From UHGV virus genome UHGV-1440165: DNA of 64,000 nucleotides; one strand, 5' to 3'. A program made the position numbers. Of the stretch, positions 39,001 to 45,000 are shown in pieces. This DNA comes from a virus. Each line of letters begins with the position of its first letter. Within the stretch, counting starts at the first letter, position 1.

Positions 39001-42000
39001 CGTGGGCTACCGTGATGACCAGAGTGCGATCGCCGTGGGTGCCTCCACTCGCATCAGCCAGAACACCGTGGGTAAACTGTCTGTATCAGCAGATACCCAA
39101 AGTGGTTACACTGTAGGCGCAGGTATCTCCTACGGCTGGTGAAGGGTTTTTATCAAGGGTGTTATGACACCCTTTTATTAAAAATCTTTAAAATAAGTTT
39201 TGTTTCAATAAGATATACGGTTTATAGTTATTACATAGAAGGGTGCCCTTGAGGGCATGCCAAATAATTTTGATGGTGTAATTCAGCGGTAGAATGGTCG
39301 GCTGTTAACCGACTCGTCGCAGGTTCAAATCCTGCCACCATCGCCAGACAATGGGTGTGAACGAAAGTGAATAGGCACGAAGTACGCGACCGACAAGCTC
39401 TTGAAGCGACGTCCAATAGCCGAACGGAATCCGAAGACGACGATAGTAACGCCCACCAAATTCAGAGTGTAGAGGCTACAGTAGTGCGCACCTCACGGGT
39501 CACTACACCGGACACTCTGATACAAATCTGCCGCTGCGTGGATTAGCTGAGGAAGGATGGCCGATGTCCTCGAGCGTGGCCCAGCACGTAGCGGTAGACC
39601 AAACACAGTAAGCGTTGCAGCCAGCTGTGTAAAAATGGGGTGACTCCACATCGGAAACGATGCCCCAACTTCCAGAAATGGTCGGGCGTGAAGCCTGTAA
39701 AGTTCCAGGAGATCGAACCAGAAGGCACTGGTGCCAGTTAACCAATCGGCGCTGAGAAGCGCGGGGAGTTGGGCTACGGCAGATCAAATGCACAATCGGG
39801 TGTGAAGCCCGTCCTTATTTCGCGGGACCATAGGGGTTGGCCAGTGGCTGACTGATCATCGGCGACGATCACTGGACAGGTTCGAATCCTGCTCTCCCGC
39901 TCCAAATTGGAAGGTTGCCCGAGAGGTTTAAGGGACTCGACTGCTAATCGAGTGGGGCTTTTAGCCCCCGAAGGTTCGAATCCTTCACCTTCCGCCAAAT
40001 TGCTTCATAGCTCAGCAGGTAGAGCGCAGGAGAGCTTCGGAAGAACAAGGTGCCTGTGGTCACTGGTTCGAATCCAGTTGAAGCAACCAAATTTGCGATC
40101 ATCGCGGAAATCCCAGACGCGCTCTCTCATAGGGCAGTACCAGTGCAAAGTGTGTAGTCTTTCCACCCATCCTCATCGATGTGGTATAGCCGGATAAGGA
40201 TATCCGGCTTTCTTTTGTCCATTATAAATACACCTGAACTTGTACAGGAGGTGTATCATGGCAACAGCCAAGTTTACTCTGGATGCAAGTACATGGACGC
40301 AAGTCTCAGATGGCACATCATTGAAAACAATACAAGTGACTCAGGGTTCTGTGTATTTGTGTGATAACCCAACCACGCCGAGTGCTTCCTCTCCGGCTCA
40401 TACTCTCTATCAAGGTAATATCGTTGTACTCACCCCGCCGACTGTTGGATGGGTTAAGGGCACGTCTTCTACTTCCGTTGTCATCGTGTCCTAGGGGGAG
40501 CCATGGCCATTCTATTGTCTCCTTACCTGGGCAACATGCTACAGACACACCGCATTAAAGTTGAAGTGAGGTTCTCCGGGCTTACTGCGGCCTTACCAGC
40601 TGGTGCAACAGGGGTTGACCTCTTGACATTGTTGGATGGCAAAACACCGCATCCTTCGTCTGTCACCGGGTTAGCTCCTTTCTTCAAATTGTCTGATCAT
40701 AAGTTCCATGCGTTTCCCGTAGATTCCATCTTGCCTGTCAAGGTGAACATCATCGGAACATGGTCTGGTTCAACTTCTAACAGGACAATGTTGCTGGACT
40801 TTGTCGGCTCAACAGGCAACCAGTTGTCTAAGAGCCGTGACTCCAGCCTGCCACCCCCAGACGTTCTCTCTTTCATCACGTTCTTCAGTGTTGACAAGGC
40901 AGGGAACCTCGCAACCAACGGGGCGCAGATGAAGCTGTACTCTTATGGTGGTGACTTCACCATTAATGAGATCGTTCTGATCGCAGAGCAGGTGGTTCCT
41001 CTCTACATGAGCACCATCTAATTTGTTCAACAACCAATAGGGGTTTAAAATTTAACCGTTAACCCCTATCATTGATTTGAGGATACACCAATGCGTAATG
41101 TTTCTATCTGGGAATTGAATGAAGTTATTTCTCAAGACATCCCCCCGTTTGTCAGGCTCTTCCAGTACAAAGGCGTGAAGCGCACTCTGAATGAGTTCCT
41201 GTCGCCTGTTTACGTCTACCGCGATGGTGGGTTCTTCCGCCGGGATAAAAACATCCCGAACCTCGGCATGAAGTTTGATATCGCAGTCAAAGGCCAGGTT
41301 GTTCTGATGGGCTACGGTAGTATCGAACAAGTGGAGAAAGGTTCCGGCGCACCGCTCCAGATCTTCTCTTCTTTTGAGCAAGCCGTTCACTGGCTGATCA
41401 GAAACGGATATGATTTCTATGGCGAAGAAAGCGCCAATTGGCGTCGTCGCAAGGTCAAGTCTGTTGATCTGGTAGATTTGAATCTGAAGTATCAGGCCAT
41501 TGCTCGTGAGTACGAAAAGAACCTACCAAAGCCTGTTACTGTGGTGGGCAACAAATACGTCCCTGACGCCCAATCTCACGGCGTGAAGATTGTTCCGGTT
41601 TGCGAAGATATTGGGCTGACACAGGCGATTAAACCACCAGTGCCGCCTACCCCTCCGGCTGGTCGTGTTCTGAATGATCAGGGTGCTCCTGTTAAGGCGA
41701 AGAAATCTACTTTCATGGATAACATGATGAAGTTCCTTCGTTTATTCAAGAAATAAGCCGAGATCCTCCTTTTCTATACTCCTGTAGATACGCTATGATA
41801 AGCCAATGTCTACAGGAGAAATAGAATGAACGATACACAAATCGAAGGTGTGATCTCCCAACACCACGACAAGTCAATATTCAACACCCTATCCCTCGAC
41901 CGCAACCTGGTCCATTGGGAAGATTATCTCTACAAGCACACCCCGTGCGAACTCGTTGCCAACCCCGAAACCAATCAGCAGGTCTGGTTCAAACGTGAAG

Positions 42001-45000
42001 ATTACTTCGCGCCACTGTCCAATTATGCAAATGGCCAGCAGGGTATCAATGGCAGCAAACTCCGTCAGGCCATCTGGCTCATGGTTGAGCATCTCAAGGC
42101 CGGAGGCTCCCCTGACATCATCCACGGCACTGTCGTTGGTAGTCCGCAGTCCCCTATGGCGACAGCAGTCTCTCGGCACTTCGGCGGCAAGACAACCACT
42201 GTGCTCGGCGCGACCAAACCAACCACTTGCATGAACCATGGCATGGTTGAGATGAGCGCCTGGTTTGGCAGTGAGTTCAACTTCGTCGGCTCTGGCTACA
42301 ACAGCACGATCCAGCCACGCTGTAAGAAGCTCATTGAGCAGGTGAATCCAAAGGCGTACTACCTGGAATATGGTATTACCCTGGATCACACAGCGCATTC
42401 CCCTGAACGCATCGCAGGCTTCCATATGCTGGGTGGCGAACAGGTTGCCAACATCCCGGACCATATCACCGATCTGATTATCCCTGCTGGTTCATGCAAC
42501 TCATGCACAAGTATCCTGACCGGGCTGGCGATGCATCCGAAGCCTAACCTGAAGCGCGTGTATCTGATCGGCATCGGTCCAAATCGCCTGGACTTCATTG
42601 AGAGCCGCCTGCGCATCATCGGTAAACAGGCGAATCTACCACACATTGTCGACTTTACTCGCCGCTATCACGACAACCCAGATTATGTGCACGGCAAGAA
42701 GGAGCTTCAGCATGCCTCTAAGAGCGTTTCGCTGGCTGGCCTCCTAAGTGGTATCAGGCAGAAGGATGAGCCAGAGGTCGTGCTGCCTCGCTTCGAGGTA
42801 CACCATTGGGATCTTCACACCACCAATTGGGTTCGTTACAATGACCTGATGGACTACCAGTGGGGTGATATCGAACTGCACCCGCGATATGAAGGTAAGG
42901 TCATGACCTGGATCCAGCAGCACAAGCCCGAGCTGCTGAATGAGAACACTCTGTTCTGGATTGTGGGCAGCAAGCCGTACATCGAGCCAATGAAGGCAGC
43001 ATGCCCTGAGCTGGCTATCCCCGAATCAGTTCCTGTAAACGGCTTCACTCCTTCCTGATCCATCCTAAATACCCCATACAACCAGTGTGGGGTATCTATG
43101 AAAACCTTTCTTGAATATCTTAAAGAGGCGTCTGAGGCTGAACCAAAGTTCAGTAACATGCGCCTCTTTCACGGCTCCAACGTAGAATTCGATGTCTTCG
43201 ACTTTGAGCACTTCGGCCAGACAGATTGCGGTACGATGGGACCTGGGTTCTATCTGACAGGGAGTGAAGAAGAGGCGCAGCGTTACGCAGAGAACGCCGT
43301 CCGCTATCGCCAGAGCGGTGAACCCCACGTGCTGGTGTTTAATGTCAGCGTTAAGAAGCCCCTCGAACTAGACTCCAACAATGTATCGGCGTGGGAAGAC
43401 GCCATGCGTGAACTTGGTATCGAACCGGGTAAGATCCATGAGAATGCTGCCGCGCTAATTGCTCAGGGCTATGACTCCACGATCATTCTTGACCGTGTTG
43501 GCCTGCCTATGGTGCGTGAGATCGTTCTGTACAAACCCGGCCTGGCAGTGCGGGAAGCCTAAATACCCCATATGGCTAACCCACTGAGGAACCCAACATG
43601 CCAACCTCCAAATTGTTTGAATCAGAACACACCAATGACATCCCCGTATGGACTGGTGTTCAAGACGGTATCACGATTGAACTGTTTGATCGTGAAGAGA
43701 CGGGCGCGGAAGAGATCTATGCAGGCGTTGAAGGCACTGATGTTGTCCGTGCTGCGGTAGCCCTTGCCACCTTCCTGGAAGATGCGCCGATTGATGGCGT
43801 GCCGTTCGAGGCTCACGTAGATCCCGAGGATCCAACGTCTATCATCATTACAGTGAATGGGGTGCCATACACTTCATACAGCATTGAGACGGACGAAGAG
43901 GGAAGTGGAGCGCTGTATATTGCCACTGACCTACAGCTGGAAGACGATGAGATGGATTATCTGATTCAGAATGGGGTGCTGCCACCGTTCACAGATGAAG
44001 ACCTGGACACGGAACTGGCCGCTGTCGGGGATGATGACGACTTCTGGGACGAATAAGAAAAGGGGCGTTAAGCCCCTTTCTTCATTTCACCTTGCGAGTT
44101 GGATATTGGTTAAAGAGTTTGCCCAGTTTAGACACGTTGATGATCGTCTGGGTCTTCCAGCGCTGGATCCCTTCTGGAGTAGTCACGGTCAGGATTGAGC
44201 GATAATTTCGATGGACATGATGTATTTCCTTCTCTTCAGATTGTTGTTTGTTCGTACTACAATTAGAAGTATACGCCAGTTATTGAAGAAGTAAACTTTA
44301 TTCAATAAATATTTTAATAAATTTTGAACTCTGCTCCCCTGTACGTCGCCGACCCTCTTTCTATGAGGCCGTCGGGGACAATCACCTTTGTTGGCCAACC
44401 ACCATCTGGAGCCTTAACAGTCAGGCGCGTCTTGTGTCCACCAAGCTGCGTCTGTTCATAGATCCTACCACGCACTATCGTCGCCCCGCCCTGGGTGACG
44501 AGCAATCTCTTGTTTACCACTTTCATTCCCTAAACACCAAAAGAAAGGGGAGTTTCCTCCCCTGTGATTTATTTCTTCAGACTAGGCCACGCACCAGAGG
44601 TCGAAGTAGACCCAGCTGGGGGAGCAGACTCAAGATCGGGAGAACCCGACTGAGTAACAACAGTGGGATCTTTTTGCACGACCTTAACCCCAAACTGTTT
44701 AAGGGCGTCAACAGCCTGATCTTTCCGCCCATTACTTTTGTAGTGGTTGTAGCCTTTGATACCGAATGATGCACTAATTGCTGTCAATAATGAATAGGTA
44801 TACCATTCAGGTGCGGTATCAAGCGCCTGAAGACCTCCGATTACTGCTTTGATGAAATCCCCTTTATGATACTCACCAGGGAACAGAATCAGTTCCACAA
44901 CCGGAGCAGTCATGACGAGGATAGCGGGTATGGCCAACACGATAGTCCAGAATTCATCTTTCCAAGATCCGCCGACTTCGGTGATCTTAGACAGCTCCCA

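What the first reader, a model, noticed from the sequence alone, without database searches (positions are those of the whole stretch)
41779..43058. ACC-deaminase-family PLP enzyme in a phage, with a 10-bp hairpin occluding its ribosome-binding site
Motifs FKREDY, GSKLR (PLP lysine context) and the Gly-rich segment align with the ACC deaminase / D-cysteine desulfhydrase family; at 410 aa it is longer than typical members. Directly upstream, CTCCTGTAGA and TCTACAGGAG form a perfect 10-bp stem whose 3' arm contains the AGGAG SD, which suggests translational control. In phages that replace thymine with modified bases a PLP enzyme can take part in base hypermodification; whether this one does is unknown.
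Basis: partly seen in the sequence, partly recalled or inferred. Interest (0 to 1): 0.55.

Follow-up and report, generated by a model that had tools for sequence, protein, structure and literature searches.

The report
Known DNA-modifying decarboxylase with masked start
This gene is the counterpart of an already characterised phage enzyme that finishes a chemical modification of thymine in the phage's DNA. The real and strongly conserved RNA hairpin over its ribosome-binding site probably limits translation to messages that start at the gene's own promoter.

Summary
ORF 41826-43058 (+, 410 aa) is preceded by a perfect 10-bp inverted repeat (41779-88 / 41809-18) whose 3' arm carries the AGGAG Shine-Dalgarno (SD) sequence. 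Folding extends it to 12 + 6 bp, up to the A of the AUG.

The window is a ViI-like phage (Ackermannviridae). The protein is 92% identical to Salmonella phage ViI gp226. Published work shows gp226 is a PLP-dependent decarboxylase that converts O-serinyl-thymidine in DNA to 5-NeOmdU. The partner kinase (50433-51350) and the amino acid:DNA transferase (51887-53119) are also in the window. By fold, the protein's nearest relatives are ACC deaminase and D-cysteine desulfhydrase, and the Schiff-base lysine (K78) is conserved. The enzyme is therefore already known.

The hairpin appears undescribed in the literature I could search. It costs 18.6 kcal/mol to open (0 of 300 shuffles reach this). It sits in a 72-nt block that is 96-99% identical across genera whose silent sites are about 60% identical. 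Diverged relatives have different arms that still pair with the SD.

A conserved -10-like box lies in the loop. My best reading is a T4-style design: read-through mRNAs are masked, and promoter-proximal mRNAs are translatable. This is inferred, because no transcript start data exist. Interest is modest.

The parts
41826..43058 (+). Gene for the PLP-dependent decarboxylase of the 5-NeOmdU thymidine-hypermodification pathway (orthologue of Salmonella phage ViI gp226 / Vi01_182)
   Evidence: It is 92% identical over residues 16-409 to YP_004327553.1 and sits in the same gene order as in ViI. It matches PHROG 3650 at E = 1e-239 and Pfam PALP at E = 1.6e-7. Biochemistry of the orthologue is in PMC8989533.
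42057..42059 (+). Codon of Lys78, the predicted Schiff-base (internal aldimine) lysine in GINGSKLRQ
   Evidence: Lys78 equals ViI gp226 K92 (K92 is named in PMC8989533). It aligns with the lysine of the ACC deaminase GNK motif and is invariant in 49 homologues.
42879..42899 (+). Codons of the invariant H352-P-x-Y355-E356-G-K358 motif
   Evidence: The motif is invariant in 49 homologues. It lines up collinearly with DPVYEGK of ACC deaminase (1rqx residues 291-300) in the profile alignment, although that short segment is not significant on its own.
41760..41771 (+). Conserved upstream box GAGATCCTCCTT (box 1), a first anti-SD sequence
   Evidence: It is nearly invariant in Kuttervirus, Agtrevirus and Taipeivirus. 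In the Serratia/Erwinia-type relatives this box, not the second CTCC, pairs with the SD.
41772..41777 (+). TTCTAT: 5' arm of the outer stem and a weak -35-like hexamer, 16 nt upstream of TATGAT
   Evidence: Fold; coordinates. It resembles the published family motif TTCAAT[N14]TATAAT (PMC7283392).
41779..41790 (+). 5' arm of the inner stem, CUCCUGUAGAUA (anti-SD)
41794..41799 (+). TATGAT, a -10-like box in the hairpin loop, 26 nt before the ATG
   Evidence: Its position is conserved: TACAAT lies 26 nt before the ATG in Serratia-type phages. TATAGT or TATAAT lies 24 nt before the ATG in Vibrio phages, where an intrinsic terminator lies just upstream. No transcript start data exist.
41807..41818 (+). 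3' arm of the inner stem, UGUCUACAGGAG, containing the SD AGGAG (41814-41818)
   Evidence: P(unpaired) of AGGAG is 0.00 in read-through RNA and about 0.4 in RNA starting at 41800-41805.
41821..41826 (+). 3' arm of the outer stem, AUAGAA, reaching the A of the AUG
41091..41756 (+). Upstream same-strand gene (221 aa, no family hit), with a promoter-like motif at 41026-41051; the likely source of read-through transcripts
   Evidence: No terminator-like site was found on the + strand between this gene and the PLP gene.
50433..51350 (+). 5-hmdU DNA kinase (pathway partner; orthologue of ViI gp243)
   Evidence: Pfam HMUD2 PF18747, 528 bits; 85% identical to Vi01_196.
51887..53119 (+). Amino acid:DNA transferase (pathway partner; orthologue of the ViI gp247 serine:DNA transferase)
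   Evidence: Pfam ADDT PF18724, 206 bits; 87% identical to Vi01_199.

Best explanation
The gene encodes the last enzyme of the 5-NeOmdU pathway of ViI-like (Ackermannviridae) phages. 5-hmdU in replicated DNA is phosphorylated by the kinase (50433-51350). The amino acid:DNA transferase (51887-53119) replaces the phosphate with serine. This fold-type-II PLP enzyme then forms an external aldimine with the free alpha-amine of the DNA-linked serine and removes its carboxylate, leaving 5-(2-aminoethoxy)methyl-dU. These steps are shown for the ViI orthologues and inferred here from 85-92% identity (probability about 0.9).

The 72-nt leader (41760-41831) is a combined promoter and RNA switch. In RNA that reads through from the upstream gene, CUCCUGUAGAUA (or box 1, CCUCC) pairs with the SD, and translation is blocked. 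That the structure forms is about 0.75 likely; it rests on thermodynamics and conservation. RNA started at the -10-like TATGAT in the loop (start near 41805) lacks the 5' arm and is translated. This last step is about 0.5 likely and is inferred only from positional conservation of the -10 box and from analogy with T4 genes e, soc, 49 and I-TevI.
For: Enzyme:
- The window is 95% identical to an Agtrevirus genome.
- The protein is 92% identical to ViI gp226, and K78 equals K92. Gene order matches ViI.
- The HMUD2 kinase and the ADDT transferase are in the window.
- Purified ViI gp226 binds PLP and decarboxylates O-SerT DNA to the 301 u nucleoside; a lysate mix lacking it accumulates the +44 u intermediate (PMC8989533).
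- The fold and the lysine motif match ACC deaminase and D-cysteine desulfhydrase.

Hairpin:
- Free energy -29.1 kcal/mol, z = -5.2.
- SD opening energy 18.6 kcal/mol; 0 of 300 shuffles reach it; rank 3 of 62 gene starts.
- Only 1-3 mismatches in 72 nt against 18 phages whose PLP-gene third codon positions are 54-88% identical (about 60% in most) and whose upstream gene is about 60-65% identical in most.
- Two of the three stem substitutions seen are wobble-preserving: C to U in L017 and A to G in LIMEstone1.
- Four diverged leaders (L019/L021, L111, L109, L110) keep the 5' half. They have different 3' halves that again pair with the SD (13.8-16.2 kcal/mol; 0-1 of 300 shuffles reach this).

Promoter:
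- A -10-like box lies 24-26 nt from the ATG in three lineages. In Vibrio phages it sits directly after a terminator.
- The SD is open in the modelled short RNA.
- Other promoter motifs in the window are embedded in hairpins in the same way.
- The T4 precedent is reviewed in PMC3014915.
Against: - No transcript 5' ends or expression data for this phage family were found.
- The -35-like hexamer is weak, and the sigma-70 consensus scan did not call a promoter here.
- Every loop base is conserved too, which a plain hairpin does not require. Some additional sequence-specific reader (RNA polymerase, a regulator or a nuclease) is therefore implied.
- The hairpin is absent from Vibrio Ackermannviridae, from L112 and L113, and from distant homologues. 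It is not needed for the enzyme as such.
- About 20 other blocks are equally conserved between this window and ViI, so the conservation is not unique.
- Enzyme activity and DNA composition of this particular phage were not measured.
Confidence: 0.6

Rival explanations
1. All mRNAs for the gene start upstream and contain the hairpin. The structure is then a constitutive brake that keeps the enzyme at a low level, or a stability or processing element (for example an RNase III or RNase E site, or protection of the GGAG from a RegB-like nuclease). It would not be a switch between transcript classes.
For: - The hairpin is very stable.
- The -35 element is weak and no sigma-70 site is called.
[quoted passage not shown] T4 RegB, an enzyme of that description, cuts GGAG in SD sequences (PMC3014915).
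Against: - An opening cost of 18.6 kcal/mol would nearly abolish initiation. Yet about 40% of thymidines are modified in ViI and CBA120 (PMC11721090).
- The -10-like box keeps its distance to the ATG even in Vibrio phages, where a terminator isolates the gene.
Confidence: 0.2
2. The inverted repeat works at the DNA level. It would be an operator for a dimeric phage or host regulator that brackets the -10 box, and its overlap with the SD would be incidental.
For: - The arms flank the -10-like box, with centres 30 bp apart.
- Every base, including the loop, is conserved, as expected for protein or polymerase contacts.
Against: - In the diverged leaders the arms change position and sequence, but always include the SD and a CUCC box.
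- No second copy of the site exists in the window.
- SD sequestration is significant in five sequence variants, counting the window.
Confidence: 0.12
3. The protein is a metabolic ACC deaminase, D-cysteine desulfhydrase or threonine dehydratase carried as an auxiliary gene, as several GenBank records annotate it.
For: - The fold and the lysine motif match ACC deaminase and D-cysteine desulfhydrase.
- Annotations such as 'threonine ammonia lyase' appear in relatives.
Against: - It is 92% identical to an enzyme shown to decarboxylate DNA-linked serine.
- It shares only 14-19% identity with ACC deaminase and D-cysteine desulfhydrase.
- It scores below the Pfam gathering cut-off and matches no NCBIfam model.
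- It co-occurs with the 5-hmdU kinase and the transferase.
Confidence: 0.03

Closest known systems
Salmonella phage ViI gp226 (Vi01_182, YP_004327553.1), the PLP-dependent O-serinyl-thymidine decarboxylase; more distantly Pseudomonas phage M6 gp52
   Same: It is 92% identical over the whole folded part, with the same lysine (K78 = K92), the same neighbours and the same pathway partners. The 72-nt leader differs at a single base.
   Different: The first ~15 residues (29 in ViI) are unrelated and of different length. This N-terminus is hypervariable across the family and is modelled as disordered. Activity was not measured for this phage.
ACC deaminase / D-cysteine desulfhydrase clade of fold-type-II PLP enzymes (PDB 1j0a, 4d97, 1rqx)
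   Different: - Identity is only 14-19%.
- The protein is about 70-85 residues longer, with a disordered N-terminus and a poorly modelled segment (low confidence at residues 291-302 and 310-313).
- The substrate is an amino acid attached to a base in duplex DNA.
- The reaction is decarboxylation, which is unusual for this fold (the last point is from my general knowledge, not tested here).
RBS-sequestering leaders of phage T4 genes e, soc, 49 and I-TevI (and the Aeh1 mobE hairpin)
   Same: The SD and start codon lie in a stable helix. A promoter lies in the DNA that encodes the structure, so promoter-proximal transcripts would lack the 5' strand. The leader is conserved among related phages (PMC3014915).
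   Different: - Here the -10-like box lies in the loop rather than in the 5' strand, and it looks sigma-70-like rather than like a late promoter.
- The regulated gene is a DNA-modification enzyme, not a lysis, capsid or homing gene.
- No start site or expression data exist.

Membership tests
ViI gp226-type PLP-dependent decarboxylase of thymidine hypermodification | Sequence orthology to the characterised enzyme | tested here: met
   92% identity over 394 residues with no gaps; PHROG 3650 at E = 1e-239.
ViI gp226-type PLP-dependent decarboxylase of thymidine hypermodification | Encoded together with a 5-hmdU DNA kinase and an amino acid:DNA transferase (aGPT-Pplase2) | tested here: met
   HMUD2 at 50433-51350 and ADDT at 51887-53119. 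The gene order matches ViI.
ViI gp226-type PLP-dependent decarboxylase of thymidine hypermodification | Lysine for the internal aldimine (ViI K92) | tested here: met
   K78 in GINGSKLRQ; invariant in 49 homologues.
ViI gp226-type PLP-dependent decarboxylase of thymidine hypermodification | Decarboxylates O-serinyl-thymidine in DNA; the virion DNA contains 5-NeOmdU | not testable with these tools
   Shown only for ViI (and CBA120 DNA) in PMC8989533, PMC5889632 and PMC11721090.
Fold-type-II PLP enzymes, ACC deaminase / D-cysteine desulfhydrase clade | Tryptophan-synthase-beta-like fold, closest to ACC deaminase and D-cysteine desulfhydrase | tested here: met
Fold-type-II PLP enzymes, ACC deaminase / D-cysteine desulfhydrase clade | Pfam PALP (PF00291) at or above the gathering score | tested here: not met
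   31.4 bits against a cut-off of 35. Only 22 of 49 homologues match at E < 0.01. The family profile does reach ACC deaminase at E = 6e-6.
Fold-type-II PLP enzymes, ACC deaminase / D-cysteine desulfhydrase clade | Active-site motifs: G-x-K lysine, S-x-Q/N loop, Gly-rich phosphate loop, Y-E/T near the C-terminus | tested here: met
   In the profile alignment GSK aligns with GNK, SPQ with SNQ, and HPxYEGK with DPVYEGK. G222, S223, N225 and S226 are conserved. The roles of the ACC deaminase residues are recalled from the literature, not tested.
Fold-type-II PLP enzymes, ACC deaminase / D-cysteine desulfhydrase clade | ACC deaminase or D-cysteine desulfhydrase activity | not testable with these tools
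   The orthologue catalyses decarboxylation of a DNA-linked amino acid instead. I file it as a structural relative, not a functional member.
T4-type RBS-sequestering leader with an internal promoter | SD and/or AUG lie in a helix more stable than chance | tested here: met
   (18.6 kcal/mol to open; 0 of 300 shuffles reach it; rank 3 of 62).
T4-type RBS-sequestering leader with an internal promoter | Pairing is maintained in relatives despite sequence change | tested here: met
   Wobble-preserving substitutions occur in the stem. Four diverged leaders have different 3' arms that still pair with the SD. Classical double compensatory changes were not seen, because the 5' half is fixed.
T4-type RBS-sequestering leader with an internal promoter | A promoter is placed so that its transcripts lack the 5' strand | tested here: inconclusive
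   A -10-like TATGAT lies in the loop. Its position is conserved in three lineages. The -35 is weak and the consensus scan makes no call. No start-site data were found.
T4-type RBS-sequestering leader with an internal promoter | Long transcripts are translated poorly and short ones well | not testable with these tools
   Only modelled: P(unpaired) of AGGAG is 0.00 in the long RNA and about 0.4 in the short RNA.

The most novel reading that the evidence does not exclude
The ultraconserved 72-nt leader is a promoter-embedded anti-SD switch. It confines synthesis of the DNA-hypermodifying decarboxylase to transcripts from its own promoter. It would be one instance of a genome-wide grammar in Ackermannviridae. 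In that grammar promoter motifs (TTCAAT..TATAAT type and the late-type CTAAATACCCC) form the 5' arm or loop of hairpins. The 3' arm of each hairpin is either the next gene's ribosome-binding site or a terminator. Translation of many genes would thus be insulated from read-through transcription.
Probability: 0.4. Interest if true: 0.5.

Novelty: new member of a known kind. Interest (0 to 1): 0.3.

Why it matters
The enzyme itself adds nothing new. It shows that this phage carries the known 5-NeOmdU pathway, which makes its DNA resistant to many restriction enzymes. GenBank labels such as 'threonine ammonia lyase' and 'DNA repair protein' on its relatives are wrong.

The leader is of some value. 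It is a compact, nearly invariant regulatory element in front of a DNA-modification gene. It suggests that ViI-like phages use the T4 trick of masking ribosome-binding sites on read-through mRNAs, possibly at many genes. That would give a testable handle on the timing of DNA hypermodification relative to replication and packaging. It also matters for anyone who engineers or expresses these genes, because a clone that includes the leader would be poorly translated.

Tried and rejected
- Single-sequence search of PDB sequences found nothing. Only the family profile reached ACC deaminase.
- NCBIfam has no matching model.
- Rfam at E <= 1 over 41000-44600 gave no match, so the leader is not a described RNA family.
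- The window holds no second copy of the leader or of box 1, so it is not a dispersed repeat.
- The sigma-70 and terminator consensus scan called neither a promoter in the leader nor a + strand terminator between the upstream gene and the ATG.
- Three literature searches for Ackermannviridae transcriptomes or start sites returned nothing usable.
- A late promoter in the 5' arm was rejected: TTCTATACTCC matches CTAAATACCCC at only about 7 of 11 positions, and no CTAAATACCCC-like site (at most 1 mismatch) falls in the leader.
- An intrinsic terminator was rejected because no U-run follows the stem on either strand.
- An RNA thermometer was rejected because the stem is too stable.
- Translational coupling to the upstream gene was rejected. 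Its stop codon lies about 70 nt before the ATG and about 15 nt before the outer stem.
- Hairpins in about 50 distant homologue loci: none were found, and many of those genes are coupled to the preceding gene. The feature is therefore lineage-specific.
- A covariance model was not built, because there are too few independent sequences and the 5' partner shifts between lineages.

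
Full report
**1. Observation**

The ORF listing gives one long ORF at 41826..43058 (+), starting with ATG and encoding 410 aa. The sequence shows CTCCTGTAGA at 41779-41788 and TCTACAGGAG at 41809-41818. AGGAG lies at 41814-41818, 7 nt before the ATG.

RNA folding of 41757-41850 extends the stem to 12 bp (41779-90 / 41807-18). It adds a 6-bp outer helix (UUCUAU 41772-77 / AUAGAA 41821-26) that reaches the A of the AUG. The free energy is -29.1 kcal/mol, z = -5.2, and 0 of 200 shuffles fold as well.

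A 10-bp perfect inverted repeat alone is weak evidence. I counted 20 overlapping 10-mer hits in the window, which merge into about 12 loci, against about 2 hits expected. The energy needed to free the SD window is more telling. It is 18.6 kcal/mol, against 4.5 +/- 2.0 when the upstream 59 nt are shuffled (0 of 300 reach it). That is the third highest of 62 gene starts in the window (median 4.5).

**2. What the gene is**

The stretch is 95% identical to Salmonella phage pSal-SNUABM-02 (Agtrevirus, Ackermannviridae) and 80-92% identical to more than 200 ViI-like phages. The protein matches Pfam PALP weakly (31.4 bits, cut-off 35), PHROG 3650 'unknown function' at E = 1e-239, and nothing in NCBIfam.

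In Salmonella phage ViI the syntenic gene is Vi01_182 (orf00226, YP_004327553.1). The two proteins are 92% identical over residues 16-409 without gaps.

Lee et al. (PMC8989533) purified ViI gp226 and reported three things:
- It carries PLP (absorbance at 410-425 nm).
- It decarboxylates O-serinyl-thymidine in DNA to the 301 u nucleoside 5-NeOmdU, with loss of one labelled carbon.
- Omitting it from a lysate mixture leaves a +44 u intermediate.

They predicted K92 as the aldimine lysine, which is K78 here (GINGSKLRQ).

The other pathway genes are in the window. ORF 50433-51350 is a 5-hmdU DNA kinase (Pfam HMUD2, 528 bits; 85% identical to ViI gp243). ORF 51887-53119 is an amino acid:DNA transferase (Pfam ADDT; 87% identical to ViI gp247, the serine:DNA transferase). 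A review states that the modification genes are conserved throughout the family (PMC11721090). The function is therefore known by close orthology. It was not measured for this phage.

**3. Family and fold**

A single-sequence search of PDB sequences finds nothing. A profile of 49 homologues (A1) hits ACC deaminases (1rqx E = 6e-6, 1f2d, 1j0e), D-cysteine desulfhydrase (4d8t) and 1j0a. In that alignment:
- GSK aligns with GNK. By my recollection of the ACC deaminase literature, that lysine is the Schiff-base Lys51.
- SPQ aligns with SNQ.
- HPxYEGK lies collinear with DPVYEGK, although that short segment is not significant on its own.

It is not right about function. The orthologue is a decarboxylase acting on a DNA-linked amino acid, and identity to ACC deaminase and D-cysteine desulfhydrase is 14-19%. 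Annotations such as 'threonine ammonia lyase' or 'DNA repair protein' in relatives are not supported.

**4. The leader in relatives**

I extracted the region upstream of the gene from 25 loci and later from more.

In Kuttervirus, Agtrevirus, Taipeivirus and related metagenomic contigs, the 72 nt from GAGAT(T/C)CTCC to ATGAAC differ from the window at only 1-3 positions. In the same phages the PLP gene's third codon positions are 54-88% identical (about 60% in most), and the upstream gene is about 60-65% identical in most. The codons just after ATGAAC are unrelated in sequence and number.

The few changes are:
- C to U at the first stem pair (L017; gives a U-G wobble).
- A to G in the 5' arm (LIMEstone1; gives a G-U wobble).
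- U to C at the loop-proximal end of the 3' arm in five loci. This shortens the stem to 9 bp and leaves the SD paired.
- One loop change.

This conservation is not unique. A window-versus-ViI comparison gives about 20 blocks with at least 58 of 60 identical bases, and at least one of them is a promoter hairpin.

**5. Diverged leaders**

Phages whose enzyme is 68-73% identical include Serratia and Erwinia phages and related contigs (L018/L108, L019, L021, L109, L110, L111). They keep the 5' half (TTCTCCTTGGGTATTGAG) and a TATACAAT box. The sequence between that box and the SD differs in each, but each folds back on the 5' half and covers the SD:
- CTCAATCACTCAAGGAG in L019 and L021.
- CTCAATTATCCAAGGAG in L111.
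- CCAAGGAGAATA against TATTCTCCTTGG, a perfect 12 bp, in L109.
- CCAAGGAGAAT in L110.

Opening energies are 13.8-16.2 kcal/mol, reached by 0-1 of 300 shuffles. L018 is weaker at 7.7 kcal/mol (16 of 300).

Vibrio Ackermannviridae (L025, L026), L112, L113 (which is coupled to the preceding gene) and about 50 distant homologues show no occlusion.

The pairing is therefore selected in the enterobacterial lineages and is not an intrinsic need of the gene. Because the arms shift position but always contain the SD and a CUCC box, an RNA-level role is more likely than a DNA operator.

**6. Promoter in the loop**

The loop holds TATGAT (41794-99), 26 nt before the ATG. The Serratia-type leaders have TACAAT at 26 nt. 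The Vibrio phages have TATAGT or TATAAT at 24 nt, directly after an intrinsic terminator, so there the gene must have its own promoter at that place.

TTCTAT-N16-TATGAT resembles the family motif TTCAAT[N14]TATAAT reported for these phages (PMC7283392). The -35 is weak, however, and the consensus scan makes no call.

Other sites of that motif in the window place the -10 box in the loop of a strong hairpin in the same way (55760, 53340, 48221). The late-type motif CTAAATACCCC forms the 5' arm of hairpins whose 3' arm, GGGGUAU, sits just before the ATG (43065 before the ATG at 43098; also 559-569, 27530-40 and 30553-63 on the minus strand).

RNA modelled from 41800 or 41805 has AGGAG about 40% unpaired. 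In read-through RNA it is 0% unpaired. No terminator-like site separates the upstream gene (41091-41756) from the leader.

**7. Mechanism proposed**

Transcripts that enter from upstream carry the anti-SD strands and are not translated. Transcripts from the proximal promoter lack those strands and are translated. This is the arrangement shown for T4 genes e, soc, 49 and I-TevI (PMC3014915).

What is shown here:
- the structure and its stability;
- its conservation;
- its re-invention in diverged leaders.

What is inferred:
- that the -10-like box is an active promoter;
- where transcription starts;
- the effect on translation;
- which temporal class is favoured.

**8. Rivals**

The rival readings are:
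- a constitutive brake, or a processing or protection element (for example against a RegB-like nuclease, since one relative is annotated as encoding an endoribonuclease that represses early genes);
- a DNA operator;
- a metabolic deaminase.

Each is weighed in the Rival explanations section. None of the first two can be excluded without start-site mapping and mutagenesis.

**9. Verdict**

The enzyme is already known. It is a close orthologue of a biochemically characterised decarboxylase in a well-described pathway. The RBS-masking leader is real and conserved, and I found no description of it in the literature I could search. It is a new example of a known regulatory kind. Interest is modest (0.3). 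It would rise if the promoter-embedded anti-SD design proves to be a family-wide rule.

Noticed in passing
window 43065-43098(+), 43559-43569(+), 559-569(-), 27530-27540(-), 30553-30563(-); also 17197-17847(-) and the 40258 start: The family's late-type motif CTAAATACCCC occurs 5 times exactly (7 times with at most 1 mismatch, against 0.5 expected). At 4 of the 5 exact sites it is the 5' arm of a hairpin whose 3' arm (GGGGUAU...) lies directly before the ATG. These gene starts have the highest SD-opening energies in the window (18-20 kcal/mol). This suggests that RBS masking on read-through RNA is a general design in this phage.
   Followed up: partly
window 55760-55803, 53340-53390, 48221-48260, 41026-41075: Sites of the TTCAAT[N14]TATAAT motif place the -10 box in the loop of a G+C-rich hairpin. 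At 55760 and 53340 the hairpin is followed by a U-run, so terminator and promoter appear to be superimposed.
   Followed up: partly
window 49754-50440 (+): A 228-aa ORF with a GIY-YIG nuclease domain (probably a homing endonuclease) sits directly upstream of the 5-hmdU DNA kinase gene and overlaps it by 8 nt. It is absent at this place in ViI. In pSal-SNUABM-02 the two are annotated as one 532-aa 'kinase'.
   Followed up: partly
L004 (Dickeya phage LIMEstone1) 1327-2996: A 535-aa ORF (DUF7487, weak REase_MTES_1575 match; probably a mobile nuclease) is inserted immediately after the conserved leader and its ATGAAC. The insert therefore inherits the masked RBS. The PLP gene downstream keeps a duplicated GGAAAATAGAATG. 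This may explain why the first codons of the PLP gene are hypervariable in the family.
   Followed up: partly
window 41832-41870 (residues 3-15 of the enzyme): The N-terminal tail between the conserved ATGAAC and K(S/T)IF differs in sequence and length between phages. Homologue lengths range from 400 to 431 aa among close relatives. The tail is modelled as disordered.
   Followed up: partly
window 43098-43562 (+): The gene next to the PLP gene encodes an ART-PolyVal / DUF3990 ADP-ribosyltransferase-like protein. In some relatives it lies upstream of the PLP gene instead.
   Followed up: no
window 37808-39142 (+): A 444-aa ORF has a signal peptide, coiled-coil repeats and a YadA-like membrane anchor (a trimeric-autotransporter-type adhesin). 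It lies inside the tRNA region. It is 87-91% identical in only a few Agtrevirus phages (SW16-7, SP-9-14, SKML-39) and more distantly present in Erwinia and other phages.
   Followed up: partly
window 40001-40089 (+): ARAGORN reports a tRNA-like gene with an undetermined identity (two-base anticodon call), next to tRNA-Ser. It may be a degenerate or unusual tRNA.
   Followed up: no
window 44179-44340 and 34451-37483: These blocks are at least 97% identical to ViI over 60-160 nt, although the average identity is 77%. The first spans a region of small minus-strand ORFs and a TTCAAT-type motif (44262-44287, minus strand). Their functions were not examined.
   Followed up: no
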